From Deltaproteobacteria bacterium (GTDB taxonomy: Bacteria; Myxococcota_A; UBA796; UBA9615), in the NCBI GenBank assembly GCA_002724675.1, contig PBPL01000101.1, forward strand, positions 8 to 64,007: a DNA stretch of 64,000 bases, in the 5' to 3' direction. How positions within the stretch are numbered: position 1 is the first letter of the stretch; every line of letters begins with the position of its first letter. Position numbers and translations under genes: made by a program. Shown in pieces: positions 24,976-59,658 of this stretch. The notes under the pieces were generated by a model. It searched no databases. It saw nothing but the letters and a program-made list of their open reading frames with translations, and was not told the DNA's origin.

Positions 24976-25622
24976 CCCGACCCGGACCCCGGGCTGCCAT
25001 TCTCATCTCTGGCCGTGGCTCCAACATGGCGGCCATTCTCGACAATGCAACCGCAGAGGGCTGGTCGGATCAGATCGCGCTGGTCGCATCCAATCGGCCC
25101 GAAGCAGAAGGCCTCGGGCTCGCCACGGCTCGGGGGGTTCCAACAGCAGTGCTGGACCACCAGCCGTATGGCACCGAGCACAGAGGACGCTTCGACACTG
25201 ATCTGGCTGAGCTCGTCCTCGCGCACGGAGCAACCTGGGTCGTTCTTGCCGGGTTCATGCGCATCCTCGGCCCAGGCTTTCTGAGCCACTTTCCAGATCG
25301 AATCCTCAACATCCACCCGAGTCTGCTACCCAGACATCCTGGGCTCCACACACACCGACGGGCCCTAGAAGCTGGCGACCGTGAGCACGGCTGTACCGTA
25401 CACTTGGTCAACGAGAGCCTAGATGGTGGCCCCATCCTCGCTCAGAAAGCAGTCCCCATCCTTCCCGATGACGACGAAGACCGACTGGCGGCCAGGGTTC
25501 TAGTGGAAGAACAGCGACTCTTCCCGCAAGTCGTCCGCGCTGCGCTCGAGGGTCGACTACAACGCAGTGATGCCTGTGGCGACCCCGCCAGTTCCTCTCA
25601 AACGAAGGCTGTGTTCACGTGA
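24972..25622 (+). CDS. purN: Phosphoribosylglycinamide formyltransferase
   Basis: AILISGRGSNMAAIL, LAGFMRIL, NIHPSLLP and GCTVHLV motifs. ATGA overlap with the purM stop. Confidence 0.92.
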   Translation: MTRPGPRAAILISGRGSNMAAILDNATAEGWSDQIALVASNRPEAEGLGLATARGVPTAVLDHQPYGTEHRGRFDTDLAELVLAHGATWVVLAGFMRILGPGFLSHFPDRILNIHPSLLPRHPGLHTHRRALEAGDREHGCTVHLVNESLDGGPILAQKAVPILPDDDEDRLAARVLVEEQRLFPQVVRAALEGRLQRSDACGDPASSSQTKAVFT

Positions 25623-27103
25623 TCTCCCGAAACTACGACGTCTTGGTCGTCGATCCGTCCCCAGGTGCACTCATTGCCGCCGCTCTCCTGGCCCGGGCTG
25701 GTCTGTCGGTCCTTGTCCTGGATCCCGAAGAGACACCAGGCCGAGTGGGACCGTTCCGCTTTGCCCGCCACCGCCCCCCAGTGGTGGGCTTCGGCGGCGG
25801 CCATCTCCTTCCCCGAACATTGAAGGCGCTGAAGTTTCATCCCCACGAGCTCCAGGCCCTGCGCAGAGGGGACCCGGGGCTCCAGGTCATCAGTAGTCGG
25901 CATCGTATCGACCTCCACTCCGACCCAGAGGCCATGGACGCCGAGTTTCGACGTGAATATCCGAGGCAGGCCAGAGAACTCAGTTCTGTGGTTCGCAAGA
26001 GCCTCGCTTCTGCCCAGTCGTTCGCCGAGGCGCTGGAGCGAGCCACCGAAGAGGCTGGTCAGGTGGGGCTACTCCAGAGCGTCGGTCTGCAGCGACCCAA
26101 GTGGAACCCGCCACTGCCCCCCCAAGATGTCCCTACATGGGGAGAGTTCCTCGATGACAGCGACCTGGCCGACTCGGGCAGGCTGCTGCTTCGGGGACTC
26201 CTGAGGCCCTTCTGCTCGCTGGACGTGGTCGAGGATCTACCCCTGCCAGTGGCAGGCATCCACCTTGCGGCTGCTTTGGACGGTGCGTTCTCCGATCCGG
26301 GCGAGGAGGACCCGCTACTGACCCTCTTGTTGCGTCGGGTGCGGGCCATGCGTGTCGACGTACTGCCCGCCCACCTCGAGCGCCTCGAGGGCAACCGGCG
26401 TCGGATTGAGCGGGCGATCTTCGAGGGCGGCACAGATCCCATGCCTGTGGAACTCCTTGTCACCGGGGGCGACCCAGAAGACCTGCTCCCGCTGCTGCCA
26501 GGCAAGCCTCGGCCCTACCAAAAAGTGCTGAGTCAGCTGGCGCCGTCACACTTCCGCTACTCCATCTACATCGGGGTTCAGGGCGACGTCATCCCTCCAG
26601 ACCTAGCCGAACAAGCGGTACTCCTGGATGACGAAGACCCCGATGGGGACGCAGGCTGCATGCTTCTGTCCACCTCGCCACCGGACAGTCCCTTGGCCCC
26701 CGGCGAGTTCCGTTCACTGACGCTATCGACACTGCTTCCCTACACAGAAGACGGCCAGCTGCCTGGCAACCTGGAGGGCGTGGCCGCAGCCATGCTCGAT
26801 CGGGTGAAGTGGCTGATGCCCTTCCTAGAACGACATATCGAGGTGCTTCACGTCCCCACGCTGAACGAGCTAGAGGACTCTGACGCGCACATTGCCATCG
26901 ACCCTCGTCCTGTGGCCTACACCCCAGCGATCCCTCCTGCAGAAGACCCCGTCGCTGCCGGGCTCGGAGTCTACCTCCCCCATCGCAACGTCTTCTGTGC
27001 CGGTCCCGCCGCATTCCCTGCGCTGGGGCTCGGTGGTGAAGGGCTGGCGGGTCGACTGGTAGAACGGGTCGCGCTGGCAGGGCTCAAGCGAACGACCGAA
27101 TAA
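25619..27103 (+). CDS. Phytoene-desaturase-like / NAD(P)-FAD oxidoreductase-fold protein with a degenerate dinucleotide-binding motif
   Basis: GTGA overlap with the purN stop. The N-terminal beta-alpha-beta YDVLVVDPSPGALIAAALLARAGLSVLVLDPEE has DPSPGA where GxGxxG is expected. The rest of the sequence gives only a weak family assignment. Confidence 0.45.
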   Translation: MISRNYDVLVVDPSPGALIAAALLARAGLSVLVLDPEETPGRVGPFRFARHRPPVVGFGGGHLLPRTLKALKFHPHELQALRRGDPGLQVISSRHRIDLHSDPEAMDAEFRREYPRQARELSSVVRKSLASAQSFAEALERATEEAGQVGLLQSVGLQRPKWNPPLPPQDVPTWGEFLDDSDLADSGRLLLRGLLRPFCSLDVVEDLPLPVAGIHLAAALDGAFSDPGEEDPLLTLLLRRVRAMRVDVLPAHLERLEGNRRRIERAIFEGGTDPMPVELLVTGGDPEDLLPLLPGKPRPYQKVLSQLAPSHFRYSIYIGVQGDVIPPDLAEQAVLLDDEDPDGDAGCMLLSTSPPDSPLAPGEFRSLTLSTLLPYTEDGQLPGNLEGVAAAMLDRVKWLMPFLERHIEVLHVPTLNELEDSDAHIAIDPRPVAYTPAIPPAEDPVAAGLGVYLPHRNVFCAGPAAFPALGLGGEGLAGRLVERVALAGLKRTTE

Positions 27104-35600: not shown

Positions 35601-36640
35601 CAAGCAACTCCCCGCACAGCCAGCTCCACCCGCTCGGCGACCTGCTCCACCGAGATCGAGACGGTACACGATGGAGAGAAGCCGTGAGAACATCGCGGCT
35701 GGTAACAGGGCCAGCAAGTGAGATCGCTCCCTCCCTCGAGCGTCGACCCGTGGCCGGGGCCGTGGCGCCCTGGATCGGTAGGCCCGAACAAGACAATGGG
35801 CCACGAACCCACCGCACTGGCCAGATGGGCCAGGCCCGTGTCGGGTAAGACGACGCAGCGAGCCCGCTGCGCCACCCCAGCCCACGCAGAAGGCCCCCAC
35901 AAGTAAGGGCCCAGTGGAGGCGCGCCGCCGAGCCCCGCTACCACGGACTCGGCGCACCTCCCATCGGGAGCTGAGGGCCCCCTGGTGACGGCAATGCGAA
36001 GGCCGCCAGCCTGGAGTCGGCGGCCCAGAGAGACCCAGTTGGCTGTAGTCCAACGCTTGGTGTCCAGCCCCTCGGCCCAGGGATGAAGCAGCACCTCAGG
36101 CTCGCCAGCCGAACGCCAAAGAGCCAGAACCGTCGCGGCTCTCACAGGCGAGAGCCGGAACGAGGCATCGGGCACGCCTTGAGCAGCGACGCCGAGCACC
36201 CGGGTGGCATGCCGCGCCACACGGAGGTAGGAATCTCGCTGATGCTCACCGGGCCCCAGCAACCGGAGTCTCCGGCCTGGCAGCGCTTCCAGAGGGCCAG
36301 GCACCGGATCCGTGAGCAACAGCCGCCGGTGATCCGATGGCAGCCCAATGCGAGTGGGCAGTCGAGAAGCTGCAGCTTGCCAGGCCACCCGAAGAGACGG
36401 TGCAAGGAGCACCGCGACACCGCTCTCGTCTCGACGCAAGCGGGATCGCACCGGCAATCCACAACCCTGGTCTACGAGAAGATCGGAAGCAACCGCGGGT
36501 CCACCAACCGGCTGTAGGGCCCAGTCCGGCAATGCGTTTCGGAGGAGACGAAGTGCCGGAAGCGCGAGGACTGTGTCCCCAAGATGACCGGGTAGGACCA
36601 CCTGCAGAGTCGGAGCCCGGACCTCGCTGCGGCGCACCAC
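35600..36640 (-). CDS. Glycosyltransferase family 9 (heptosyltransferase-like)
   Basis: VVLPGHLGDTVLALPALRLLR, DTKRWTTANW, PDTGLAHLASAVGSWPIVLFGPTDP. Confidence 0.8.
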   Translation of the reverse strand: MVRRSEVRAPTLQVVLPGHLGDTVLALPALRLLRNALPDWALQPVGGPAVASDLLVDQGCGLPVRSRLRRDESGVAVLLAPSLRVAWQAAASRLPTRIGLPSDHRRLLLTDPVPGPLEALPGRRLRLLGPGEHQRDSYLRVARHATRVLGVAAQGVPDASFRLSPVRAATVLALWRSAGEPEVLLHPWAEGLDTKRWTTANWVSLGRRLQAGGLRIAVTRGPSAPDGRCAESVVAGLGGAPPLGPYLWGPSAWAGVAQRARCVVLPDTGLAHLASAVGSWPIVLFGPTDPGRHGPGHGSTLEGGSDLTCWPCYQPRCSHGFSPSCTVSISVEQVAERVELAVRGVA

Positions 36641-49526: not shown

Positions 49527-49529
49527 GGC

Positions 49530-50462
49530 TTACTCGAAGCCAATCAGCCAGATCGCCTGTCCACCGTACTGCCCAGACAGGTCCGTGCCCACGTAGGGGT
49601 TGGTCTCGGTGTTCTTGAAGAACTCCCAGTATCCGTACCACGAAGAGCCGGGGCCCGCCGCAGCCGAGACCTGGTTGATACCAATCTCGTTGGACAGCGT
49701 TCCAGGGGTGTTGTTCACGAAACCAGCGTGGGTGAACTCAAGCCCGTACTCAGACAGGGTCTGCTCGATCTCGGCAGCGCTGTAGCCACCGTCCACCGTC
49801 AGCTCCATGCCCTGATCGCTCATCGTGGTGACATCCACCAAGCCGAGGCTGAGGAAGTCGCCCATGCCACCATCGGTGATGGGAGTCAGCAGCGAGGGGC
49901 CGAAGTTGGCGCCGGCGAGGTCCAGCTCGGCGACATCGCAGTCGTCCGGGTTGGTCGCAGGATCGGAGATGTCGGTGGCCGACGTGTGATCGAACTCAAT
50001 GGAGCCCGTGCAGTTGTTGCAGCCTTCACCAGCCAGGATGCCGGGGCCGAAGGTGGCAGAGCCAGCGATCTGAATCCACTGCGTGCAGTTCAGGATCTGG
50101 GTTGCCTCGTTGTACTCAGCCCAGTAGTTGACACCGAACACGGCAGAGATGTCGGTAGAGGAGTCGTCCACGGGGACCGCTTCCATCTCGATGGAGAAGC
50201 TGATGGCAGCCAGCGCGAACTCAGCCGCGGTGTCGTCATCATCATCGTCGTCATCATCATCGTCGTCGCCGAGGTTGTTACCACCGTCGTCGTCGTCGTC
50301 ACCAGGAATGTTGTTGCCGTCGTTGTCAGTGTCACCGTCGATGGACGAGTCGCCACCATTGGCACCATCTGTGCGGGCATCACAGCCCATTCCAACCAAC
50401 GCAACACCCACAACCAGCGCCAACATATAGCTACTGAACATCTTCACGATAACCTTGAACAT
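49530..50462 (-). CDS. Asp-rich lipoprotein, function unknown
   Basis: ATG 50460-50462 preceded by GGAGGGAG. Lipobox LVGMGC. D/N/G-rich region including D5 and D12 runs. The remainder has no recognisable motif. Confidence 0.65.
   Translation of the reverse strand: MFKVIVKMFSSYMLALVVGVALVGMGCDARTDGANGGDSSIDGDTDNDGNNIPGDDDDDGGNNLGDDDDDDDDDDDDTAAEFALAAISFSIEMEAVPVDDSSTDISAVFGVNYWAEYNEATQILNCTQWIQIAGSATFGPGILAGEGCNNCTGSIEFDHTSATDISDPATNPDDCDVAELDLAGANFGPSLLTPITDGGMGDFLSLGLVDVTTMSDQGMELTVDGGYSAAEIEQTLSEYGLEFTHAGFVNNTPGTLSNEIGINQVSAAAGPGSSWYGYWEFFKNTETNPYVGTDLSGQYGGQAIWLIGFE
50232..50300 (-). repeat. GAY (Asp) codon tract encoding GDDDDDGGNNLGDDDDDDDDDDDD
   Basis: The plus strand reads GTCGTCATCATCATCGTCGTCATCATCATCGTCGTC..., a low-complexity trinucleotide tract inside the lipoprotein CDS. 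Confidence 0.9.
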
Positions 50463-50704
50463 TCGGGTCTCCCTCCACCTCGCATATACCGACCAGACCG
50501 GTTGCAGACACCCTGCAACACGAACCATCCAGCCCAGCTGAGTGCGAGCGGCGAGCGGTATGTACCCGAGAGCCGCGCGAAAGAAAAGTCCTTTTTCGAA
50601 CAAGCCCTACGCGAAACGGCAACAGGCATCGAAATCGGAAAAAACAAGAAGAGACGCAACTTCAAGACAAGGTCGACGCTGTAACCGATAGCGGCAACCG
50701 CAGC

Positions 50705-51991
50705 TCAGTCAACGCGAACCTGCCTGGGAGGCTCCTTCGACGCCGAGACCGCTCTGACCCGAGCCGTATCCAGCTGACCTCGACCAAACTCCGAGTCGAT
50801 CTCGCGTGCCAGCGAGAGCACGAAGCGAAGAGTTTGCTCGAGAGCGCGGGGCTCTACCGAGTCCAATCGGTCCTGGTGCGTGTGTAAGACCTCCGCAGCC
50901 CTGCCACGAACCAACGTAGTGAGCGTCACCGCCCGGTAGCCGGCCTCCGTCACCGGACCCGCATCGGTTCGCCCCACAAGGGCGACCTCGCCGACCCCAT
51001 CGAACTCATCGGACTGAGCGAGACGCTCCGCCAGAGCAGGCAGGCTTGGTCTATATGGCAAGCGGTCCCAACGCCCTTCTGAGCTGACGAAGTGCAGCTC
51101 CCCACGGCCGACGTCGTCTAGGTTGACGAAGAAGGTCGCGCGCCGGTCCAGAAGATGAGCGAACTGGCGCACGAACGCCTTCATGCCGCCCGAGTCCGCT
51201 TCACGCGCGCCGGTCGCGAGGACCCACAGCTCGCAGTGCTCCAGTGGTTCATTCACCAGATGCTCCGCGGCCACTAGAGCCACCGCGAGGCCAGAGCCGT
51301 TGTCGATGGCCCCAGCGGTGGGGACAGAGCGCCACCAATCGATGGCAATGAGAAGCGTGGCGACGTGGATCCAGGCCGCCATCAGCAGCGCCGCAAGCGC
51401 GACGGGAGAGGGTTCAGGAAGCGCCAACGCCAAGATGGAGGCGACAAGTTGAGTAGCACCACCGACGAGTACAATGGTGCCAGGGTGCAGGGGCACACCA
51501 CCGATTAATTCATAGTGAGCCAGTCGCTTGACCCAGGGACTGAAGAGCGTGGACGCACCGGCCACGTCCGCATGCGCCACGAGCACCACCCGACCCCGAC
51601 TGCCCGGCTGCCGAAGGCGCGCGACCATATTGCCCGTCAGCTGCTTCATGAGAAGCCAGCGCACCAGACGCGGGCGGCCGCGAAGCTCACCCCAAAAGGA
51701 CAGCAAGACCAACGAAGTCAGCAACACAGGCCCCAACCCGTTGCTCAGAAGGGACCAGAGCAGGGCCACGAGCAGAAGGGCCGAGTGTGTCCCCAGCAGG
51801 ACAGAGGTCTGAGGAGCGCACACCGCCCCCTCAACGACCGTGTCCATGCCCAGCCGGTCTAGACGCCCGGCAAGCGCAGCCTGGGCCATGCGCTCACCTT
51901 GAGAACCCGCCAGTCGACCAGGCAACTCGGTGACAACCCCGATGAATTCCTTCATGCGTTGGACCGTCGATGTTTGATGCGAGTGTGACAT
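50705..51991 (-). CDS. M28-family metallopeptidase-like membrane protein
   Basis: RVVLVAHADV... and GAIDNGSGLAVALVAAEHL...WVLATGAREADSGGMKAF resemble M28 metal-ligand blocks. Several hydrophobic helices lie N-terminal to and between these blocks. Confidence 0.5.
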   Translation of the reverse strand: MSHSHQTSTVQRMKEFIGVVTELPGRLAGSQGERMAQAALAGRLDRLGMDTVVEGAVCAPQTSVLLGTHSALLLVALLWSLLSNGLGPVLLTSLVLLSFWGELRGRPRLVRWLLMKQLTGNMVARLRQPGSRGRVVLVAHADVAGASTLFSPWVKRLAHYELIGGVPLHPGTIVLVGGATQLVASILALALPEPSPVALAALLMAAWIHVATLLIAIDWWRSVPTAGAIDNGSGLAVALVAAEHLVNEPLEHCELWVLATGAREADSGGMKAFVRQFAHLLDRRATFFVNLDDVGRGELHFVSSEGRWDRLPYRPSLPALAERLAQSDEFDGVGEVALVGRTDAGPVTEAGYRAVTLTTLVRGRAAEVLHTHQDRLDSVEPRALEQTLRFVLSLAREIDSEFGRGQLDTARVRAVSASKEPPRQVRVD

Positions 51992-52073: not shown

Positions 52074-53498
52074 ATGAACCTCGTTGTCGACGAGGTTGTT
52101 TCGCTGCACAGCGACAACCTCTCTCATGTATTCCATGTACCCACATCATCGCTGTATGCGATGGACTCCGAAACCATGTCTATCCTCGAGGGTGCTCGTG
52201 ATGGACTGCATACCGATCAGAGCCTGCAGAAACTGACGGCGGACTCAGGTCTCGACCCGGCCGAGGTCGAGGACATCATCGACAATTTGGTGAAGTTGCG
52301 TCTCCTGGTCCCACCAGGCGAGACCGGCAACCGAGGCCCACTTGCTGACCGGCCGCAGAGTGGCCGGAGCATGGGCAATCTCGTCCTCCACGTGGCACAC
52401 ACCTGCAATCTGGGTTGCGGCTACTGCTATGCGGAGCAAGGCCTGTACAAGGGCAAAGCCACCCTCATGAACGAAGAGCGAGCCCATGAATATGTGGACT
52501 GGCTATTCGACCAGTGTGATCCGGAGACCAAGTCTCTCGGCATCACTTTCTTCGGGGGCGAGCCACTGCTGAATCTGAAAGTCATGAAGTCCGCCGCAGC
52601 CCATGCTCGAGAACGAGCGGACACGGACAACAAGTCTGTGCGGTTCTCCGTGACGACCAACGGCACCCTAGTCACCCCCGAGATCGTCGACTTTCTAGCC
52701 GCCATCGACTGTGTCGTCACAGTGAGTCTGGACGGCATCGGCAAGACCAACGATCGCCTGCGCCCGTTCCACTCGGGCCGCGGGTCCTACGACCTCGTCC
52801 TGGACCGCATCCAACCGCTCCTCGAACGGGGCAAGGTGGCTGCCCGTGTCACCGTCACCCGGCAGAACCTCGATGTCGTAGACACCGTCACGACGCTCCT
52901 CGAACGAGGCTTCGCTGAGGTGGGGTGCTCGCCAGTCGATGCGAAGAATCCTGCCTACGACCTGCGAGGGGAAGACTACGAAGTGCTGCTCGATGGCTTC
53001 GGCACACTCTCCCGACGCTACATCGACGAGGCCGTGCAGGGTCGTAAGTACGGCTTCTCTAACATCGCCAACATCATCAAGGCGGTGCACCAAGGGCACA
53101 ACAAGGACTACCCGTGCGGCGCGGGGCTCCAGATGGTTGCGGGTGCCCCCAACGGTGAGATGAGCCTATGCCACCGATTCGTTGGTGAGCCGGACTACGT
53201 CCTTGGCAACGTCAAAGAGGGTGGAATCGATAGCCATCGTCGGCTTCAGATCCTCGAGGACATCCAGCTGTCCGAGCGATCCGACTGCTCCAGTTGCTGG
53301 GCCCGTTACATCTGCTCCGGCGGATGCCACCACGTCAACTTCCTGTTCGAGGGAGACCCCAGCCGCACTTACCTGACCCACTGTGACTACCTCCGAGCTT
53401 GGTATCGCATGGGCCTCGAAGCCTACGCTGAGATCATGTCACGCAACCCCGAGTTCGTCGGGGAGTTCATCGACCCCGGTTTTCTGTGCAATCAGTAA
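52074..53498 (+). CDS. qhpD: Radical SAM / SPASM-domain peptide-modifying enzyme (QhpD-like thioether-forming maturase)
   Basis: CX3CX2C at C111/C115/C118 (CNLGCGYC, nt 52404-52427). Full 7-Cys SPASM motif: C348-x12-G-x4-C366 ... C405-x2-C408-x5-C414-x3-C418 ... C437 (nt 53115-53384). About 100 aa N-terminal to the core could be a peptide-binding (RRE-like) region. Sits immediately upstream of a QhpC-like peptide gene. Confidence 0.8.
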   Translation: MNLVVDEVVSLHSDNLSHVFHVPTSSLYAMDSETMSILEGARDGLHTDQSLQKLTADSGLDPAEVEDIIDNLVKLRLLVPPGETGNRGPLADRPQSGRSMGNLVLHVAHTCNLGCGYCYAEQGLYKGKATLMNEERAHEYVDWLFDQCDPETKSLGITFFGGEPLLNLKVMKSAAAHARERADTDNKSVRFSVTTNGTLVTPEIVDFLAAIDCVVTVSLDGIGKTNDRLRPFHSGRGSYDLVLDRIQPLLERGKVAARVTVTRQNLDVVDTVTTLLERGFAEVGCSPVDAKNPAYDLRGEDYEVLLDGFGTLSRRYIDEAVQGRKYGFSNIANIIKAVHQGHNKDYPCGAGLQMVAGAPNGEMSLCHRFVGEPDYVLGNVKEGGIDSHRRLQILEDIQLSERSDCSSCWARYICSGGCHHVNFLFEGDPSRTYLTHCDYLRAWYRMGLEAYAEIMSRNPEFVGEFIDPGFLCNQ

Positions 53499-53535
53499 CG
53501 AGAGCCTAAGATTGGCGCGAAAAGGAACCCAGCCC

Positions 53536-53832
53536 ATGAGCCGAATCAAGCCTCTGAACATTAAGGCAAGAGCTGTCGAAGCGAGCACAGACCGCGACGT
53601 GCGGGGCTACGCATTCGGCGACTGCTGCGCATCCTTCGCGCCGGGTTGGGAGGTGGGCACCCAAGACAACGCCGACCCCTGCCCGTGGAAGAGCGACCTC
53701 AGCCTCTGCTGGGGCACCTGCTACTGGATGGGTCAGGTGCCCGACTACATCTCGTACGGGGAGTGGCTCGACACCTGCGGCAACATTCAGAACGACTGGC
53801 GCAATCTCTGTACCATTCCGGACAACGGGTGA
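53536..53832 (+). CDS. qhpC: 98-aa Cys/Trp-rich precursor peptide, QhpC-like (gamma subunit of quinohemoprotein amine dehydrogenase; CTQ and thioether carrier)
   Basis: ATG 53536 preceded by AAAGGAA. Sequence MSRIKPLNIKARAVEASTDRDVRGYAFGDCCASFAPGWEVGTQDNADPCPWKSDLSLCWGTCYWMGQVPDYISYGEWLDTCGNIQNDWRNLCTIPDNG. Blocks C-x3-F-x-PGWEV, C-x3-C-x-W-x3-VPD and DWRNL match my recollection of Pseudomonas/Paracoccus QhpC. The Cys-to-acceptor spacings match the published crosslinks (see findings). Confidence 0.75.
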   Translation: MSRIKPLNIKARAVEASTDRDVRGYAFGDCCASFAPGWEVGTQDNADPCPWKSDLSLCWGTCYWMGQVPDYISYGEWLDTCGNIQNDWRNLCTIPDNG

Positions 53833-54908
53833 CGCTCATGCTCCAGCGCACGAACTCCTATATCTGCACTCTGGCCGCTCTCGTCGCGGCTGCCGTCTGG
53901 CTGCTCGCCCTGCCTCAGCACACAGAGGCGGCGGGCGCTCGCACTGCATGGGTATCTAGCAACCACATCCAGGTCATTGACCTGGACACGGCTCGGGTCA
54001 TTGGCCGGCTGCCGCTCTCCGAGTTCATCCACGACATGGACTTCAGCGTGGACGGCAACCGCGTGTACGTAGGCAGCAGCAAGGGGCTGCGTGTGGCCGA
54101 TGCCAACGAGCTCCGGTTTGTGCAGCAGGTGTCCACGAGCATGACCAAGGCCGTAGCGGTCTCCAAAGACGGCAGTCGCGTCGCAGCGATTCATCCTGGG
54201 GACCGAGAGGCGACACAGGCAGCCCGGAAAGCTGGCCTTCCCCTCCCCCCCGCCAAGATCACGATCTACTCGACGCTGGACATGAAGGAACAGAGTTCCT
54301 GGCACGTGCACGCCATGACATTCGATGTCCTGTTCGCGCCATCGAACGATCGGGTCTACGTGTTGGTACCCCCCGAGGGCATGGTCTATGTCCACGACTT
54401 GAGTGGGGCAGTTCTCGACACCATTCAGCTCGTACCGAGGAGCCCCGAGGGTTCCCACCAGGGAGCAATGCTGACCTGGATGGCGCTCTCGCCCGATGGC
54501 CGATCGCTGGTGGTCCCCGGCACAACCGCAGACCGATCGTTCGTAGCAGAGGTCGACCTGGGCAACAGACGACCCCTGGATGAACGCGTGGTCCACCAAG
54601 ATCTGGGACACAACCGGAGGATCCAAGGGCTGGCTTGGGACGATGACGGCAGTGGTGTTTACGTCACTGCAGTGAACTCCATGGTCAAGTTCAATGGTCT
54701 CGGTCTTCCCATCGCCTGGGAATCCATGCCGCTCAACTACGTCGACATCGAGCCCATCCCAGGCACCAACGAGAACGTCCTGGTGGCGCCCATCTTCTCC
54801 AAGTCCAACAAGAGCGGGGGGGTCGCCATCTTGGGCGAAAACGGCGAGTTCCTGAGAACGGTGGAGTTGCCCGACATGAGCCCCTACTTCGTGGCTGTCC
54901 GACCCTGA
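53829..54908 (+). CDS. qhpB: Periplasmic 7-bladed beta-propeller protein (QhpB-like beta subunit)
   Basis: GTG 53829 overlaps the precursor stop (GTGA); ATG 53838 is an alternative start. Signal peptide ...ICTLAALVAAAVWLLALPQHTEA-AG. Seven repeats of the pattern hydrophobic strand-D/N-x-turn...(S/D)xDGxRVYV, e.g. IQVIDLDTARVIG...FSVDGNRVYV, LRVADANELRF...VSKDGSRVAA, ALSPDGRSLVV, WDDDGSGVYV. Confidence 0.7.
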   Translation: MTLMLQRTNSYICTLAALVAAAVWLLALPQHTEAAGARTAWVSSNHIQVIDLDTARVIGRLPLSEFIHDMDFSVDGNRVYVGSSKGLRVADANELRFVQQVSTSMTKAVAVSKDGSRVAAIHPGDREATQAARKAGLPLPPAKITIYSTLDMKEQSSWHVHAMTFDVLFAPSNDRVYVLVPPEGMVYVHDLSGAVLDTIQLVPRSPEGSHQGAMLTWMALSPDGRSLVVPGTTADRSFVAEVDLGNRRPLDERVVHQDLGHNRRIQGLAWDDDGSGVYVTAVNSMVKFNGLGLPIAWESMPLNYVDIEPIPGTNENVLVAPIFSKSNKSGGVAILGENGEFLRTVELPDMSPYFVAVRP

Positions 54909-55900
54909 CCACACTCTGCCTACACGCGCCCGACCGGGCGCGGCTGACGCAACTTGAGCAAGCCTCGGACCTTCGTCGGTCGGAGGCTGCCTGGCTATCC
55001 AGTCTGCCCGACTACAGCCGGCTCTATTTTGGGGTCGAGTTCTGCGAGCACCTGCTTCCCAGCGCGGACGACGTGGAGGCCGCTTGCGACTTCTGCAACC
55101 GGCGTCAATGGAAGCTAACGCTGCTGACACCCTACGTAACCGACTGGGGGCTCGAGAAGATCGACCCACTCCTCCAGGCCCTAGACACCATGGCGCCCCA
55201 TGGCACCGAGGTGGTCGTCAACGACTGGGGAGTACTCCGCCAGGTAGCCAACCGCTCCAACGCAGACCTCTTGGTTGTACTGGGCCGAGGGTTGAACCGG
55301 ATGTTCCGCGACCCGAGAGTTCCCGATGTAGGTCCAGAACATCTGGGGGGAGACGCTCCACCGAGCGCTTGGCGTAGCGCGAGCCACCAGAGTCAGGGTT
55401 TCCGAACCATGCTCCGCTCGGCAGGCATCCAACGGATCGAAACGGACATGCCGATGCAAGGTATGCAGGACCTGGACCCCGACGAACAAGACCTGAAGCT
55501 AAGTGTTCACCTGCCCTATGGAATGGTGGCCAGCGGCCGCATCTGCATGATGAGCGCCCTTGGGCAGTCGGCTTCAGTGCGATTCCCCCCACCTCGCGCC
55601 TGCACTGCGCCCTGCCACGACTACACTTTGGAGCTTCGCGCGCCCTGGACGCGTCGAGCGGTTGGAGCAGGCCGGCTACCCCTGGTTGCAGAGGACAGCT
55701 TTCTGCCTCTAGACCACGTGCTCAATCGCCGTCGTAACGCGTTTCCAGCCCACGAGAATGACGACGCACCGAGGTTCATCCAGAAAGGCAACACCCACTT
55801 CTACTGCCTGGACGAGGAGAAGGTGGACAGTGCGCTGGACTGGGTCCACCGCAACCCCACAGCAGACCGCATCGTGGTAGCACCTGACGTGCCCATGTAG
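54905..55900 (+). CDS. Divergent peptidase-U32-family (TIM-barrel) protein, first of a tandem pair; probable CTG start
   Basis: The listed ORF starts at GTG 55073. The same frame is open back to 54902 and encodes TTLCLHAPDRARLTQLEQ...YSRLYFGVEFC, paralogous to the N-terminus of the next gene (QILCPVNSPEEVAPLVDAGADEFYCG), which is the typical U32 start. U32-like core KLTLLTPYV...EVVVNDWGVLRQV...GIQRIETDMP. Cys cluster C-x19-C-x3-C (GRICMM...RACTAPCH). Confidence 0.5.
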   Translation: MTTLCLHAPDRARLTQLEQASDLRRSEAAWLSSLPDYSRLYFGVEFCEHLLPSADDVEAACDFCNRRQWKLTLLTPYVTDWGLEKIDPLLQALDTMAPHGTEVVVNDWGVLRQVANRSNADLLVVLGRGLNRMFRDPRVPDVGPEHLGGDAPPSAWRSASHQSQGFRTMLRSAGIQRIETDMPMQGMQDLDPDEQDLKLSVHLPYGMVASGRICMMSALGQSASVRFPPPRACTAPCHDYTLELRAPWTRRAVGAGRLPLVAEDSFLPLDHVLNRRRNAFPAHENDDAPRFIQKGNTHFYCLDEEKVDSALDWVHRNPTADRIVVAPDVPM

Positions 55901-55928
55901 GCTTGCGAGCCCTAGGACCCAGAGCCCC

Positions 55929-57035
55929 GTGCAAATCCTTTGCCCCGTCAACAGCCCCGAAGAGGTCGCTCCGCTTGTGGATGCAGGGGCGGACGAGTTC
56001 TACTGCGGCCTGTTCCCCACAGAGTGGTACGAAAAGTGGGGTCGTGGGAGCTGGCCTAACCGGCGCGGACCAGGCCCGGCCAACATCAGCAAGATTGACG
56101 ACCTGGCGCGGCTGGCAGACAGCGTGCACACCGCAGGCTCCGGTGGGCCCAACCAGCGGCGAGTTCCACTGTTCGTTGCGCTAAACCAACAGTTCTACCC
56201 AGACGACCAGGCGGACTTCCTCCTGGGGATCGCTCAGGACCTCCAGAGCCGCTCCGCTGTGGACGCCTTCATAGTGAGTGACCCCGGCTTCATGGGCCTC
56301 TTGAAGACTGAGATTCCGGAGGCGCGAGTCTTCTCCTCCACGGTGTCTGTTGCAACCAATGCTCAGGCGGTCCGGTTTCTTGCGGACTTGGGATGCTCCC
56401 GAGTCATCCTGTCCCGTCATCTGCACCTGGCCGAGGTCGAGTCGCTGCAACAATCCGTCCCCGATGTGGAGCTGGAGGTCTTCCTGCTCAACGACAACTG
56501 TTATTTCGAGGAAGGCTTCTGCAGCACGACACACACCATGCCGGGCTTCGGTGTCTACTGCATGACACCGTGGGAGCTGAGAGTCACCCGCGATGATCAG
56601 GGGGGGCAGGGTCTATCCGATCCCGAGGAGCGAGCTCGCTGGGACTTTCTCATCGACGAGCACCGACGCTTCCTGGGCAATCTGTCGCACCGGGGTTTTG
56701 GGGGCGGTCGCGCAGCAGTTCCGCTCGGACCATGCGGACTCTGCGCGATCCCCAAGCTCATGGACCTGGGCATCCACAGCGGCAAGATCGTGGGTAGGGA
56801 GGCCAGCCTGTATCGAAAGATCCGCTCTGTTCAGTCCGTCCGATACGTACGGGACAGCTATCGAGAAACCGGAGATGCTCAAGAGGCAAAGAAGAAGGCA
56901 GTAGAGCTTCGTGCTGACCCACGGGGTTGCAGTAGCGGCATGTCCTGTTACTACCGTAGCGCCCGAGACCGCGACCTCATCCCCCTGCCCTCCCGGAGCA
57001 CCAAGAAGCCGACTCGAAACGCGACCAAGCCATGA
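55929..57035 (+). CDS. Peptidase-U32-family protein, second of the tandem pair
   Basis: GTG start. MQILCPVNSPEEVAPLVDAGADEFYCG, VALNQQFYPDD...DAFIVSDPGFMGLLK, VSVATNAQAVRFLADLGCSRVILSRHLHLAEV and FLLNDNCYFEEGFCSTTHTMPGFGVYC (CX6CX12C), plus PCGLC. This is the U32 architecture with Fe-S-type cysteines, as in the UbiU/UbiV/RlhA family. Confidence 0.65.
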   Translation: MQILCPVNSPEEVAPLVDAGADEFYCGLFPTEWYEKWGRGSWPNRRGPGPANISKIDDLARLADSVHTAGSGGPNQRRVPLFVALNQQFYPDDQADFLLGIAQDLQSRSAVDAFIVSDPGFMGLLKTEIPEARVFSSTVSVATNAQAVRFLADLGCSRVILSRHLHLAEVESLQQSVPDVELEVFLLNDNCYFEEGFCSTTHTMPGFGVYCMTPWELRVTRDDQGGQGLSDPEERARWDFLIDEHRRFLGNLSHRGFGGGRAAVPLGPCGLCAIPKLMDLGIHSGKIVGREASLYRKIRSVQSVRYVRDSYRETGDAQEAKKKAVELRADPRGCSSGMSCYYRSARDRDLIPLPSRSTKKPTRNATKP

Positions 57036-58927
57036 CCTCAAAGGGGTCCCCTCCCCCCTCTCCAGCCTTTGTGCCCGAGGCCATACGGCCGGACTCGGTG
57101 CGCCCAGCCGACACGGAGGTGTCGGAGCACACGAAGGTCCCCTGGAAGCGCGTCTTCAGCTACCTACTGCCCTACTGGAAGGCCGAGGTCCTTCTGGTGC
57201 TCGGTATGGCGATCGGTATTGGGCTCTCCTTGGTCTACCCGTTCCTGCTGCGAGAAATCGTCGACGATGTGGTGGGCCCCGGCGCCTCGGCTGCGACCGA
57301 TCGATTGTTACCCCTTGCCGCCCTCATCCTGGCCGCCACGGCCGGCGGGGTCGTGCTCTCTGCCGCTGCCGCCTGGCTCCAGACCTGGGTCACAGCACAC
57401 GTCCTCGTTGATCTCCGCTTGGAGTTGTTCCAGCACCTTCAGTCATTGGGCCCTGCTTTCTTTGCCCGCAAGCGACTGGGGGACGTCCTGTCTCGCATGG
57501 GAGGAGACCTCGCCGAGCTGCAACAGGTGGCCACCGGAACTCTCATCAATGTCATTGGGTCGGTCGTCACACTCGTGGGAGTCATCACGGCGCTCACCTT
57601 CCTCCAGCCCCTATTGCTTGCCGTAGGCGCGGCGTTCATCCCCATCGCTATCGGCTTACTGGTGCTGCTTCGGCCCATCATCCGGCGCCTGTCTTTGAGG
57701 ATTCGAGAGCGCAACGCTGACATCTCCCATCAGATGTTGGAGAGCCTAACCGGCCTGCGCACGGTCCTGGCCCACGGGCTTGCCGACCGAGAAGCGAAGC
57801 GGTTCGAGGGCAACAACTTGGCGTTGATCCGAGCCGTTCTGCTCTTCCGCCTGTGGAACTCGGGATCAGCCGGCGCCTTCCAGATCCTCGTCACGGCGAA
57901 CCTCCTGGCTGTCCTCGTCGTTGGTGTCTGGCTGATGCGAACGACTGCGATGACCCCAGGCGACCTCGTCGCGTTCCTCCTGTTCCAACAGCGACTCTAC
58001 GGTCCGCTGCAGGGGCTGGCGGGCACTTATGTCAATCTGCAGCGGGCAGCAGCGTCAGTGGCGCGAGTCTTCGAGTTGCGCGACGCCAAGCCCCTGGAGG
58101 CTGCCGACCCGGCCCTGTCCCTCGACGAACCCTTCCAGGGACGCGTCGAGTTCGACAAGGTTTCGTTCCAATACGCTCCCGGACGACGGGTTCTGACCGA
58201 CCTGACGATGCGAGTGGATCCCGGAGAGACCGTGTGCCTGGTCGGCCCCTCAGGAGTGGGCAAGACGACCGTCCTCGAGCTCATGTTTCGATTCGTCGAC
58301 CCCGATGAGGGACGCGTTCTACTGGACGGCATCGATCTTCGAGAACTGGACCTCGACAGCGTTCTGCCCCAGGTCGCGTTGGTAGGCCAAGAGCCCGCGC
58401 TGTTCGATGGCACTCTACGCGACAACCTCCGATGGCTCCGGCCGGACGCGCCAGAGGCCACCATGAACGAAGTGGTCGAGCAAGTGGGCTTGTCGGAGTT
58501 CGTCCGCAGCCTGCCCCAGGGGCTGGAGACTCCTCTCGGCGACCGCGGCATTCGCCTGTCCTCTGGGCAGCGCCAGCGCATCGGGCTCGCCCGCGCGCTT
58601 CTCCGAGAACCCGTCCTCTTGGTGCTGGACGAAGTCACCTCGGCCCTGGACTGGGAGAGTGACCGGCTCGTCGTCGAAGCACTCCAAGCTCGGCGAGCCT
58701 CGGGCTGCACCACCCTGATCATCTCCCACCGCCTGCATCTTGCCGTCGATGCAGACCGAGTCGTCGTACTAGAAGACGGTCACGTGGCGACCACAGGCAC
58801 CCACCTCACCCTGCTCGACCAGGGCGGACTGTACCGCAGACTTTGGGACTTGCAGCGAGGCGCGGCAGAGGCCAGGAGGTCCCCCAGCAGCGGCAGAACA
58901 CACCCCACCGAGGACGGCTCGGCGTGA
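57032..58927 (+). CDS. qhpF: ABC exporter, fused TMD-NBD half transporter (QhpF-like)
   Basis: ATGA overlap with the U32 stop. Six-helix TMD followed by Walker A GPSGVGKTT, signature LSSGQRQRIGLARAL and Walker B LLVLDEVTSALD. Confidence 0.8.
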   Translation: MTSKGSPPPSPAFVPEAIRPDSVRPADTEVSEHTKVPWKRVFSYLLPYWKAEVLLVLGMAIGIGLSLVYPFLLREIVDDVVGPGASAATDRLLPLAALILAATAGGVVLSAAAAWLQTWVTAHVLVDLRLELFQHLQSLGPAFFARKRLGDVLSRMGGDLAELQQVATGTLINVIGSVVTLVGVITALTFLQPLLLAVGAAFIPIAIGLLVLLRPIIRRLSLRIRERNADISHQMLESLTGLRTVLAHGLADREAKRFEGNNLALIRAVLLFRLWNSGSAGAFQILVTANLLAVLVVGVWLMRTTAMTPGDLVAFLLFQQRLYGPLQGLAGTYVNLQRAAASVARVFELRDAKPLEAADPALSLDEPFQGRVEFDKVSFQYAPGRRVLTDLTMRVDPGETVCLVGPSGVGKTTVLELMFRFVDPDEGRVLLDGIDLRELDLDSVLPQVALVGQEPALFDGTLRDNLRWLRPDAPEATMNEVVEQVGLSEFVRSLPQGLETPLGDRGIRLSSGQRQRIGLARALLREPVLLVLDEVTSALDWESDRLVVEALQARRASGCTTLIISHRLHLAVDADRVVVLEDGHVATTGTHLTLLDQGGLYRRLWDLQRGAAEARRSPSSGRTHPTEDGSA

Positions 58928-59658
58928 ACAAGTCCACTACAGACCGAGGTCCTCTGGTCGCTGTCGTGGACAGTGGCGTGGCAGCCGGACACCCGCACTT
59001 GGAAGGCCTACAGTTGCGTTCCTTCTCCCTCGAGGGAGCGGGATCACCACTGGACCGACGGCCAGAGGCATCGGACCGGACAGGGCATGGCACTGCGTGT
59101 GTTGCCGCCCTATACCGGGCGAATCCCCGGGTGGAGGTCCTAGCAATCCGTCTCTTGGATGAAGAGTTGAGAACAACCGCCGAGGCTGTGGCCGAGGCGA
59201 TCCGCGTCGCTGCCGACGAAGGAGCGAAGGTCATCAACCTCAGCCTGGGCTCGGGCAGGGCCGAATCGAGGTCCCTACTGGAGGAGGCCGTGCTGTACGC
59301 CAGGGAGCGGTCAGCACACTGTGTGGCTGCCGCCCACCCAAAGGGACGGCAGCTTTGGCCAGCCGACCTGCCCAGCGTGATCTCAGCGATTAGTCACCGC
59401 AGTTGCCCTCTCAGCGACCTGTATCGTGTGGAGGGGCCACTGCCCCGGTTTCTCGCGCACGGCTATCCACGGCCCATCGAGGGCCGGCCCCCCACCGCCA
59501 ATCTGTACGGCCCATCGTTTGCCGCCATTCACTTGTCAGCAAAGGTTGCGGAGATTCTGACCAGAGACTCCCAGTTGGCATTCTCCGACATCGTCACCTG
59601 CCTGGAAGAGAGCTGTTCCGGCTCCTGGAATGAAACCAGCACTCACCCTAGGTCTTGA
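58924..59658 (+). CDS. qhpE: Cytoplasmic subtilisin-like (S8) serine protease (QhpE-like leader peptidase)
   Basis: GTGA overlap with the ABC stop. Asp block LVAVVDSGV, His block DRTGHGTACVAAL, Asn region VINLSLG, Ser block YGPSFAAIHLSA. No signal peptide. Only 244 aa. Confidence 0.7.
   Translation: MNKSTTDRGPLVAVVDSGVAAGHPHLEGLQLRSFSLEGAGSPLDRRPEASDRTGHGTACVAALYRANPRVEVLAIRLLDEELRTTAEAVAEAIRVAADEGAKVINLSLGSGRAESRSLLEEAVLYARERSAHCVAAAHPKGRQLWPADLPSVISAISHRSCPLSDLYRVEGPLPRFLAHGYPRPIEGRPPTANLYGPSFAAIHLSAKVAEILTRDSQLAFSDIVTCLEESCSGSWNETSTHPRS

What the first reader, a model, noticed from the sequence alone, without database searches (positions are those of the whole stretch)
54902..55075. The first U32 gene appears to start at a CTG overlapping the upstream stop (CTGA)
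The first ATG/GTG/TTG in this frame is GTG 55073. However, the 56 codons upstream are open and encode TTLCLHAPDRARLTQLEQASDLRRSEAAWLSSLPDYSRLYFGVEFCEHLLPSADD. This parallels the N-terminal strand-helix of the paralogue next door (QILCPVNSPEEVAPLVDAGADEFYCG).

Reading codon by codon, this stretch has no ATG, GTG or TTG. It has CTG at 54905, 54944, 55004 and 55052. Only CTG 54905 retains the homologous N-terminus. It overlaps the propeller gene's TGA (54906-54908), like the ATGA/GTGA couplings elsewhere in the operon. Standard gene callers would truncate this protein by ~56 aa.
Basis: seen in the sequence. Interest (0 to 1): 0.5.

Follow-up and report, generated by a model that had tools for sequence, protein, structure and literature searches.

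The report
Conserved CTG start overlapping upstream stop
A gene in an enzyme-maturation operon almost certainly starts at the rare start codon CTG, which overlaps the stop of the gene before it; 13 related lineages keep this arrangement, and standard gene callers cut off the conserved front end of the protein.

Summary
The frame is open from 54647. It has no ATG, GTG or TTG before GTG 55073, and CTG 54905 overlaps the propeller gene's TGA (CTGA).

- Orthologues with normal starts begin M/V-x-LC(L/V)HAPDRxRL, exactly level with CTG 54905.
- Thirteen lineages (46-78% protein identity, not one clade) keep the same CC-CTG-A junction and have no canonical start that would retain this N-terminus.
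- Five further lineages use CTG, ATA or probably ATC there.
- The 39 codons between the CTG and the FGVEFC motif have dN/dS 0.07-0.18, like the rest of the gene.
- In the structure model these residues form barrel strands 1 and 2. They also carry the nearly invariant Cys47, a likely Fe-S ligand by analogy with UbiV.
- Two independent assemblies have the same C, so it is not a base-call error.

The most likely mechanism is weak CUG initiation by termination-reinitiation (inferred, not shown). A frameshift fusion is unlikely.

The label "U32" for this gene is not confirmed: there is no Pfam hit, no profile match, and only a joint-best fold match.

CTG starts are known in E. coli (hda, yfjD). A conserved CUGA overlap is an unusual new case and a family-wide annotation error.

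The parts
54905..54907 (+). CTG, proposed initiation codon of the downstream gene. It is the first three bases of CTGA. Its C is the third base of the propeller gene's last codon, CCC (Pro).
   Evidence: It aligns with the ATG/GTG/TTG starts of orthologues. L017 'CTG ATC CTC' lines up with L011 'GTG ATT CTC'. The same CC-CTG-A occurs in 13 lineages.
54906..54908 (+). TGA stop of the upstream propeller gene, overlapping the CTG by two bases.
54905..55900 (+). Full-length CDS (331 codons plus stop) of a TIM-barrel protein with a UbiV-like Cys pattern, called 'U32A' here.
   Evidence: Orthologues of 325-336 aa cover 99-100% of it. AF2 model has pLDDT 86.7.
54908..55072 (+). 55 conserved N-terminal codons with no ATG, GTG or TTG. 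Database gene calls leave them out.
   Evidence: dN/dS for the 39 codons before FGVEFC is 0.07-0.18, against 0.10-0.14 for the rest of the gene. Fisher p = 6e-5 to 6e-9. GC by codon position is 0.71/0.49/0.76, like the rest of the gene.
54911..54928 (+). Codons 3-8 (TLCLHA), predicted barrel strand beta1. The conserved HAPD motif follows directly.
   Evidence: strand at residues 3-8, pLDDT 95-97. Alignments.
55028..55054 (+). Codons 42-50 (FGVEFCEHL), the end of strand beta2. F42, G43, F46, C47, H49 and L50 are nearly invariant. C47 (55043-55045) is a candidate Fe-S ligand.
   Evidence: nearly invariant columns. (strand 37-43). The UbiV ligand C39 lies in a similar IYLGEAVC context.
55073..55075 (+). 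GTG, the first canonical start codon and the start used in public annotations (275-aa product). It is codon 57 and lies inside helix 54-67.
53829..54908 (+). Upstream beta-propeller gene (QhpB-like position in the operon). By eye it has an N-terminal Sec-type signal peptide. It starts at a GTGA overlap with the gamma-peptide gene. Its C-terminus ...ELPDMSPYFVAVRP* is conserved.
55929..57035 (+). Bona fide U32-family gene (PF01136), 28 nt downstream. It is the likely partner of U32A.
52074..53498 (+). QhpD-like radical SAM/SPASM maturase (operon context).
   Evidence: TIGR03906 at 373.8 bits, below the 453-bit cutoff.
53536..53832 (+). QhpC-like Cys/Trp-rich gamma peptide, 98 aa (operon context).
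   Evidence: PF08992 is recorded for the identical gene in L003 and L004. Translation.
57032..58927 (+). ABC exporter in the QhpF position. It starts at an ATGA overlap.
58924..59658 (+). QhpE-like subtilisin. It probably starts at a GTGA overlap.
   Evidence: NF049966 at 128.9 bits, below the 165-bit cutoff..

Best explanation
The gene downstream of the propeller gene is a 331-codon CDS (54905-55900). Translation starts at CUG 54905, inside the stop-start overlap CUGA. The initiator tRNA reads the CUG as fMet.

The most likely route is termination-reinitiation. A ribosome finishing the propeller gene at Pro-UGA stays on the mRNA and restarts one base upstream on the near-cognate CUG. There is no recognisable Shine-Dalgarno sequence, and such sequences are weak across this window. 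Because CUG is a poor start codon, the protein is made at a low level tied to propeller translation. That would suit a cytoplasmic maturation enzyme next to an exported structural subunit.

Shown here:
- The N-terminal 56 codons are coding, conserved, under purifying selection and structurally integral.
- No canonical start can deliver them.
- CTG 54905 is the only near-cognate codon that can.
- Relatives either have a canonical start at that aligned position or keep the same CTGA.

Inferred, not shown: that fMet-tRNA initiates on this CUG, that initiation depends on translation of the upstream gene, and that the weak start is selected rather than merely tolerated.
For: 1. No alternative start exists. 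The frame is closed at 54644-54646 and has no ATG, GTG or TTG before 55073. In the 78%-identical relative L001 the frame opens only 30 nt before its CTG.

2. Orthologues of 325-336 aa with ATG, GTG or TTG starts begin M/V-x-LC(L/V)HAPDRxRL, aligned to residues 1-15 here. At DNA level, L017 'CTG ATC CTC' matches L011 'GTG ATT CTC'.

3. Thirteen distinct lineages at 46-78% identity have the propeller ending CGN/AGA CCC TGA, with the conserved N-terminus following the CTG and no usable canonical start. They are the window, L001, L083, L005, L171, L008, L093, L009, L010, L015, L017, L163 and L170. They are not monophyletic in an NJ tree. The neighbouring Arg codon varies through five synonyms, while CCC is invariant.

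4. CTG is also the only candidate start in two loci where it does not overlap the Pro codon. It lies 15 nt after the TAG in L094 and 7 nt after the TGA in L169. L019 has ATA overlapping the TAG. CUG, AUA, AUC and AUU are the four near-cognates that initiate at 1-2% of AUG in E. coli (bioRxiv 10.1101/063800).

5. Purifying selection acts on the 39 codons between the CTG and FGVEFC. dN/dS is 0.18, 0.07 and 0.16 for the three pairs among the window, L001 and L083, with dS 0.5-1.4. The rest of the gene gives 0.10-0.14. Fisher p = 6e-5, 6e-9 and 2e-4.

6. Structure. The AF2 model has pLDDT 95-97 over residues 1-50, with beta1 at 3-8, alpha1 at 11-19 and beta2 at 37-43. V57 (GTG 55073) lies inside helix 54-67. 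The nearly invariant F42, G43, F46, C47, H49 and L50 all lie upstream of 55073.

7. C47, C214, C233 and C237 form CXnCX18CX3C. This resembles UbiV's 4Fe-4S ligands C39, C180, C193 and C197 (CXnCX12CX3C), where the first Cys also lies far upstream (PMC6747719).

8. It is not a sequencing error. ENA and NCBI assemblies that differ from the window by 1-2 SNPs carry the same CCCTGA.

9. Other 4-nt overlaps in the window are ATGA or GTGA, so coupling is the norm in this genome.

10. CTG starts have been verified experimentally for E. coli hda and yfjD (PMC3531124).
Against: - There is no experimental evidence: no N-terminal peptide and no ribosome profiling.
- In E. coli reporters CUG supports only about 0.02-3% of AUG-level initiation. 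It is unknown whether that is enough for function, or whether this lineage is more permissive.
- The invariance of C at 54905 is weak evidence of selection for CTG. CCC makes up about 51% of Pro codons. The terminal Pro is also CCC in 5 of 6 lineages where it does not overlap the start.
- Five lineages appear to use near-cognate starts 7 to about 60 nt after the stop, or ATA on a TAG. Tight 4-nt coupling is therefore not obligatory, and ordinary de novo initiation on CUG cannot be excluded.
- No Shine-Dalgarno sequence or conserved RNA structure marks the site.
Confidence: 0.75

Rival explanations
1. CUG 54905 is the start codon, but a free 30S subunit recognises it by ordinary de novo initiation. 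It does not depend on ribosomes terminating on the propeller gene. The overlap is just compact gene packing.
For: Related loci seem to use near-cognate starts away from the stop: L094 CTG at +15 nt, L169 CTG at +7 nt, L007 ATC at +33 nt, and L086 CTG about 60 nt downstream. The E. coli CTG starts in hda and yfjD were confirmed by start-codon mutagenesis.
Against: There is no Shine-Dalgarno-like sequence upstream of the CTG. Thirteen lineages keep the exact 4-nt overlap. De novo initiation on CUG is about 1-2% of AUG in E. coli. Four-nt overlaps are the classic context for termination-reinitiation (PMC6728339; PMC12548453).
Confidence: 0.15
2. Programmed -1 ribosomal frameshift at the end of the propeller gene. 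Peptidyl-tRNA-Pro on CCC slips back one base at the slow Pro-UGA termination site. The ribosome then reads CUG as Leu and makes a propeller-U32A fusion protein.
For: The downstream frame is the -1 frame of the propeller gene, and it is open upstream of the junction. By general knowledge, a C-terminal Pro followed by UGA terminates slowly.
Against: - There is no conserved slippery site. The base before CCC is A, T, C or G across lineages.
- There is no conserved downstream RNA structure: consensus energy is -0.29 kcal/mol with no covariation.
- No homologue among 159 hits is longer than 339 aa, so there is no fusion precedent.
- Eleven lineages have separate genes with a spacer and their own start.
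- By eye the propeller carries a Sec-type signal peptide, while the downstream protein has a Cys motif typical of cytoplasmic Fe-S enzymes. A fusion would be topologically incoherent.
Confidence: 0.04
3. The annotated GTG 55073 (or the internal CTG 54944 or 55004) is the real start. On this view the upstream codons are a decaying remnant and the gene is N-terminally truncated or a pseudogene.
For: GTG 55073 is the first canonical start and is the start gene callers chose. Distant homologues at 30-39% identity often align only from about residue 35.
Against: - dN/dS upstream of 55073 is as low as in the rest of the gene, despite saturated synonymous divergence.
- The nearly invariant FGVEFCxHL motif, including Cys47, lies upstream of 55073.
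- The short form would lack barrel strands beta1 and beta2.
- The internal CTGs and the GTG are not conserved in position across lineages.
- Some distant homologues do align from residue 5-6: L024, L038, L055 and L079.
Confidence: 0.05
4. Base-call or assembly error. On this view the true base at 54905 is A, G or T, giving ATGA, GTGA or TTGA. Any of these would be silent in the propeller gene.
For: Any base at 54905 keeps Pro in the upstream gene, so an error would go unnoticed.
Against: Two other assemblies of the same population (ENA ERZ27286375 and NCBI GCA_003533695.1, 1-2 SNPs apart from the window) have C. So do 12 further species-level lineages from different studies.
Confidence: 0.01

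Closest known systems
Verified CTG-initiated bacterial genes (E. coli hda and yfjD) and the near-cognate start codons CUG/AUA/AUC/AUU
   Same: A near-cognate CUG is used as the start, and it is predicted from sequence conservation where the first canonical codon would truncate the protein. That is how the yfjD start was predicted (PMC3531124). The relatives here use CTG, ATA and probably ATC, which belong to the set of near-cognates measurable in E. coli.
   Different: Here the CTG sits inside a stop-start overlap (CTGA). It is retained in 13 diverged, non-monophyletic lineages. No Shine-Dalgarno sequence is visible, and nothing has been verified experimentally.
Translational coupling by termination-reinitiation at 4-nt overlaps (ATGA/GTGA) (PMC6728339, PMC10666635; review PMC12548453)
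   Same: The two genes are co-directional and in one operon with a -4 overlap. No Shine-Dalgarno sequence is needed. Other junctions in this operon are canonical ATGA or GTGA.
   Different: The start codon in the overlap is CTG rather than ATG, GTG or TTG. CTGA, GTGA and TTGA do not occur in the text of PMC6728339, and CUG does not occur in the review PMC12548453.
infC/pcnB-type conserved AUU starts (recalled from memory)
   Same: A conserved weak start codon is thought to set or regulate a low expression level.
   Different: Those use AUU with a Shine-Dalgarno sequence, and infC has an IF3 feedback loop. No such regulatory logic is evident here.
UbiV, the partner of UbiU in O2-independent hydroxylation (PMC6747719)
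   Same: - The protein is about 300 aa and is encoded next to a bona fide U32 gene.
- The Cys pattern is CXnCX18CX3C, against UbiV's CXnCX12CX3C, with the first Cys far upstream.
- By eye the motifs match in the same order: LYFGVEFC with IYLGEAVC, and HLPYGMVASGRIC with HLPLAYSARC.
   Different: - No Pfam U32 hit in any of 44 family members.
- hhalign probability is below 1% against E. coli UbiV and against the neighbouring U32 protein.
- The gene order is reversed: the partner comes first here, and UbiU comes first in E. coli.
- The operon context is a qhp-type peptide maturation cluster, not ubiquinone synthesis.

Membership tests
Stop-start overlapping (-4) translationally coupled gene pair | Co-directional genes whose stop and start share the 4 bases NTGA | tested here: met
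   CTGA at 54905-54908. The upstream ORF ends at TGA 54906-54908, and the downstream conserved frame begins at 54905.
Stop-start overlapping (-4) translationally coupled gene pair | The start codon in the overlap is canonical (ATG, GTG or TTG) | tested here: not met
   It is CTG here and in 12 other lineages.
Stop-start overlapping (-4) translationally coupled gene pair | Downstream translation depends on upstream translation | not testable with these tools
   Needs a reporter with a premature stop in the upstream gene.
Near-cognate (CUG) initiated bacterial gene | Conserved, selected coding sequence extends upstream of the first canonical start, and a near-cognate codon sits at the position of the orthologues' start | tested here: met
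Near-cognate (CUG) initiated bacterial gene | N-terminal Met/fMet incorporated at the CUG; expression lost when the codon is mutated | not testable with these tools
   Needs proteomics or mutagenesis.
Programmed -1 ribosomal frameshift | Conserved slippery sequence at the shift site | tested here: not met
   The base before CCC TGA varies through A, T, C and G. The upstream 'C CCC' run is not conserved either.
Programmed -1 ribosomal frameshift | Conserved stimulatory RNA structure downstream | tested here: not met
   RNAalifold on 11 junctions gives -0.29 kcal/mol and no compensatory pairs.
Peptidase U32 family (PF01136), for the gene at 54905-55900 | Match to the Pfam U32 model or to U32 NCBIfam models | tested here: not met
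   No hit for the window protein in either library at E <= 0.01. In Pfam, no hit for any of 44 family members even at E <= 10.
Peptidase U32 family (PF01136), for the gene at 54905-55900 | Detectable profile homology to a U32 protein | tested here: not met
   hhalign of A1 against the neighbouring U32 gives probability 0.4%. Against E. coli UbiV it gives 0.3%. The targets were single sequences, so sensitivity was limited.
Peptidase U32 family (PF01136), for the gene at 54905-55900 | U32-type TIM-barrel fold | tested here: inconclusive
Peptidase U32 family (PF01136), for the gene at 54905-55900 | Four conserved Cys forming a 4Fe-4S site | tested here: inconclusive
   C214, C233 and C237 are invariant and C47 is at least 90% conserved. 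The pattern resembles UbiV. Cluster binding is not testable here.
qhp (quinohemoprotein amine dehydrogenase) maturation operon | QhpD radical SAM, QhpC gamma peptide, QhpE subtilisin and QhpF ABC exporter present together | tested here: inconclusive
   All four types are present. However, QhpD (373.8 bits, cutoff 453) and QhpE (128.9 bits, cutoff 165) score below the NCBIfam cutoffs. PF08992 is recorded for the gamma peptide. No QhpA or QhpG was seen among the nine ORFs scanned between 49314 and 60562.

The most novel reading that the evidence does not exclude
The CUG in the CUGA overlap is not a tolerated defect but a selected attenuator. On this reading, ribosomes terminating on the exported propeller subunit reinitiate on a deliberately poor start codon. 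This fixes a low, coupled output of a cytoplasmic Fe-S maturation enzyme.

This gene family repeatedly uses CUG, AUA and probably AUC at its start: 18 of 29 lineages, in at least three junction layouts. That would make it a natural system showing that start-codon stringency is relaxed, or exploited, during termination-reinitiation.
Probability: 0.3. Interest if true: 0.65.

Novelty: new member of a known kind. Interest (0 to 1): 0.45.

Why it matters
**Annotation.** Public gene calls for this family are truncated by about 30-95 residues in most lineages that lack a canonical start. The lost part includes two barrel strands and a probable Fe-S-ligating cysteine. Anyone expressing or modelling the annotated protein would get a dead fragment.

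**Mechanism.** A CUG start kept inside a stop-start overlap across many diverged lineages is a rare natural test case for an open question raised in the 2025 coupling review (PMC12548453). That question is what controls start-codon specificity when a terminating ribosome reinitiates.

**Context.** The protein and its U32 neighbour sit in qhp-type operons where the O2-dependent hydroxylase QhpG would be expected. Getting the full-length sequence right is therefore a prerequisite for testing a possible O2-independent route to a tryptophylquinone cofactor.

Tried and rejected
- **Sequencing error.** Rejected. Independent assemblies agree.
- **Upstream canonical start overlapping the propeller gene.** Impossible. 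There is none between the stop at 54644 and 55073, and the frame in L001 is closed 30 nt upstream of its CTG.
- **-1 frameshift fusion.** No slippery site, no RNA structure, no fused homologues.
- **Conserved RNA structure at the junction.** None found.
- **Shine-Dalgarno motif upstream of the CTG.** None. Such motifs are generally weak or absent in this window.
- **A second CTGA-start candidate at 26062 on the minus strand** (48 codons without a canonical start). Rejected as an antisense shadow of the real plus-strand gene 25619..27103.
- **Other ORFs with coding-like sequence upstream of their first canonical start** (1207, 31347, 32180, 35975). No Pfam hits, so they could not be assessed.
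- **Selection for C at 54905 from Pro codon use.** Suggestive only. 0.514^13 is about 2e-4 if lineages were independent, but CCC is also the terminal Pro codon in 5 of 6 non-overlapping lineages.
- **Sequence tests of U32 membership.** Pfam, NCBIfam, hhalign against the neighbour and against E. coli UbiV, and a PDB profile search were all negative.
- **AFDB Foldseek library.** Not available.
- **One contig (P0045).** It could not be fetched.
Full report
**1. The observation**

The propeller ORF ends GTC CGA CCC TGA (TGA at 54906-54908). The next gene's frame reads CCG ACC CTG ACC, so CTG 54905-54907 and the TGA form CTGA. That frame is open from 54647, after a TGA at 54644-54646. It has no ATG, GTG or TTG until GTG 55073. 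The near-cognate codons in it are CTG 54716, ATC 54722, and CTG 54905, 54944, 55004 and 55052.

The lack of a canonical start over 56 codons is not striking by itself. ATG, GTG and TTG make up 5.6% of in-frame codons in this window's genes, which gives P of about 0.04. The case rests on comparative evidence.

**2. Genomic context**

The gene lies in a qhp-type (quinohemoprotein amine dehydrogenase-like) maturation operon:

| Coordinates | Gene |
|---|---|
| 52074-53498 | QhpD-like radical SAM/SPASM enzyme |
| 53536-53832 | 98-aa QhpC-like gamma peptide (PF08992) |
| 53829-54908 | beta-propeller; starts at a GTGA overlap; Sec-type signal peptide by eye |
| 54905-55900 | the gene in question |
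| 55929-57035 | bona fide U32 protein (PF01136) |
| 57032-58927 | ABC exporter; starts at an ATGA overlap |
| 58924-59658 | QhpE-like subtilisin; starts at a GTGA overlap |

The other 4-nt overlaps in the 64-kb window are all ATGA or GTGA. One further apparent CTGA-start, at 26062 on the minus strand, is an antisense shadow of a real plus-strand gene.

**3. Where orthologues start**

A database search with the 330-residue translation of 54908-55900, the extended form without its first (CTG) codon, found 159 homologues. Many are 325-336 aa, 50-56% identical and cover 99-100% of the query. They begin MILCLHAPDRRRL, MTLCLHAPDRRRL, MDLCVHAPDRRRL or VILCLHAPDRARL. These align residue for residue with L(CTG)-TTLCLHAPDRARL.

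The nearly identical database entry (P0001, NCBI DIU15_03920) is called at 275 aa from the GTG. The columns F42, G43, F46, C47, H49 and L50 are nearly invariant, and all lie upstream of that GTG, which is V57.

**4. The junction in relatives**

I pulled DNA for 29 distinct orthologue lineages from genome, metagenome and assembly collections. I then read each junction.

- **CTGA overlap, 13 lineages.** These are the window, L001, L083, L005, L171, L008, L093, L009, L010, L015, L017, L163 and L170.
  - The propeller ends ...ELPDMSP(F/Y)xVAVRP* as CGN/AGA CCC TGA.
  - The conserved N-terminus follows the CTG of CTGA.
  - No canonical start would retain that N-terminus.
  - In L001 the frame opens only 30 nt before the CTG.
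- **Spacer plus canonical start, 11 lineages.** An intergenic spacer is followed by ATG, GTG or TTG at the aligned position. At DNA level, L011 'GTG ATT CTC' corresponds to L017 'CTG ATC CTC'.
- **No canonical start, other near-cognates, 5 lineages.**
  - L094 has CTG 15 nt after the TAG, aligned with the M of the 'MDLCVHAPD' relatives.
  - L169 has CTG 7 nt after the TGA.
  - L019 has ATA overlapping the TAG.
  - L007 probably uses ATC.
  - L086 probably uses CTG.

The CTGA lineages are not monophyletic in an NJ tree.

**5. Is the upstream stretch translated?**

For the 39 codons between the CTG and FGVEFC, dN/dS is 0.18 (window-L001), 0.07 (window-L083) and 0.16 (L001-L083). Synonymous divergence (dS) is 0.5-1.4. 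The rest of the gene gives 0.10-0.14. The excess of synonymous over non-synonymous change is significant, with Fisher p = 6e-5, 6e-9 and 2e-4. GC content by codon position in this stretch (0.71/0.49/0.76) matches the rest of the gene. The stretch shares only 4 nt with the propeller gene, so this constraint belongs to its own frame.

**6. Structure**

The AlphaFold2 model of the 331-aa form has mean pLDDT 86.7, and 95-97 over the first 50 residues. It places barrel strand beta1 at residues 3-8 (TLCLHA), alpha1 at 11-19 and beta2 at 37-43 (RLYFGVE). V57 lies inside helix 54-67. The 275-aa product would therefore lack two barrel strands.

It would also lack C47. Together with the invariant C214, C233 and C237, C47 forms CXnCX18CX3C. 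This resembles UbiV's experimentally defined 4Fe-4S ligands C39, C180, C193 and C197 (CXnCX12CX3C), where the first Cys also lies far upstream (PMC6747719; UbiV sequence).

**7. Error and recoding alternatives**

*Base-call error.* Any base at 54905 would be silent in the propeller gene, so an error was worth checking. Assemblies from ENA and NCBI differ from the window by 1-2 SNPs over 5-7 kb and have the same C. So do all the other CTGA lineages.

*Frameshift fusion.* A -1 frameshift fusion is unlikely for five reasons:
- The base preceding CCC varies freely, so there is no slippery site.
- RNAalifold finds no conserved structure.
- No homologue exceeds 339 aa.
- Eleven lineages have clearly separate genes.
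- A fusion would join an exported propeller to a probable cytoplasmic Fe-S enzyme.

**8. Mechanism**

Shown: the conserved, selected and structurally required N-terminus can be translated only from a non-canonical start. CTG 54905 is the only near-cognate codon positioned to do this.

Inferred: ribosomes terminating at Pro-UGA reinitiate on the overlapping CUG. This is termination-reinitiation as described for ATGA overlaps (PMC6728339; review PMC12548453). It would need no Shine-Dalgarno sequence, and such sequences are weak throughout this window.

In E. coli, CUG, AUA, AUC and AUU initiate at about 1-2% (range 0.02-3%) of the AUG level (bioRxiv 10.1101/063800). This family uses codons from that same set. 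A low output tied to propeller translation is therefore the expected consequence.

Whether the weak codon is selected or merely tolerated is open. CCC is invariant in 13 of 13 overlapping lineages, while the adjacent Arg codon cycles through five synonyms. However, CCC makes up about 51% of Pro codons. It is also the terminal Pro codon in 5 of 6 non-overlapping lineages. The two loci where CTG starts lie outside the Pro codon (L094, L169) argue that CTG itself is what is used.

**9. Comparison with known cases and novelty**

CTG starts are rare but established: E. coli hda and yfjD have been verified (PMC3531124). Stop-start overlaps are also common. This case is a new member of those kinds with an unusual combination of features. 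The CUG lies inside the overlap, is retained across many diverged lineages, and is mis-called by gene finders across the whole family.

- No Pfam or NCBIfam hit at E <= 0.01, and no Pfam hit for any of 44 family members even at E <= 10.
- hhalign probability is below 1% against both the neighbour and E. coli UbiV.
- The Cys pattern, some motifs by eye, and the pairing with a true U32 gene make a UbiV-like role plausible but unproven.

**10. Verdict**

Confidence is about 0.8 that CTG 54905 is the initiation codon. It is lower, about 0.6, that initiation is coupled to upstream termination. Interest is moderate.

Noticed in passing
window 52074-59658; L168 1170-10732: The operon is a qhp-type cluster with QhpD-like rSAM, QhpC-like peptide, propeller, ABC exporter and QhpE-like protease. 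A TIM-barrel/U32 gene pair sits where the O2-dependent flavoprotein QhpG would be expected. In a Syntrophobacteraceae contig (L168), a full qhpA-D-C-B operon carries the same pair before qhpF-qhpE. The pair may be a UbiV/UbiU-like O2-independent hydroxylase for tryptophylquinone formation. No paper in the searched library links U32 with QhpD or CTQ.
   Followed up: partly
L169 1434-1460: In this relative the sequence after the propeller gene reads cccTGAcgtcccgCTGAcc. The overlapping CTG opens a 4-codon mini-ORF (CTG ACG TCC CGC TGA). The stop of that mini-ORF again overlaps the CTG that begins the conserved N-terminus, giving a second CTGA. It looks like a short duplication of the junction.
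   Followed up: no
L019 around 3630-3650: The propeller ends ...SPQ TAG. The downstream frame begins ATA GAC CTC TGC (IDLCVHAPD), so ATA overlaps TAG (ATAG) where relatives have ATG ('MDLCVHAPD'). This is a second kind of near-cognate stop-start overlap in the family.
   Followed up: partly
L169 2476-3903; L170 2404-3387: In these two lineages the TIM-barrel gene is not followed by a U32 gene. L169 has a molybdopterin oxidoreductase next, and L170 has no called gene for about 1 kb.
   Followed up: no
window 53646-53832 and 58843-58927: The mechanical ORF list starts the propeller at TTG 53646 and the subtilisin at TTG 58843. Relatives and the 4-nt overlaps indicate GTG 53829 and GTG 58924 as the real starts.
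   Followed up: partly
window 54816-54822: There is a run of seven G in the propeller gene (codons GGG GGG G..). The reading frame and the conserved C-terminus are intact, so there is no sign of a homopolymer error.
   Followed up: yes
window, starts listed: Few of about 29 probable gene starts have a recognisable GGAGG-type Shine-Dalgarno sequence upstream. This organism seems to rely little on such sequences, which fits frequent overlap coupling.
   Followed up: no
window 1207-1737, 31347-31910, 32180-32695, 35975-36517 (+): Four small ORFs have 24-46 open codons with a coding-like GC pattern upstream of their first canonical start. They have no Pfam hits, so it is unknown whether any is another non-canonical start.
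   Followed up: partly
window 49314-51991: No QhpA (dihaem alpha subunit) homologue was found among the nine ORFs scanned between 49314 and 60562. Upstream there is a divergent M28 peptidase (50705-51991, minus strand) and a 456-aa ORF with no family hit (49314-50684).
   Followed up: no
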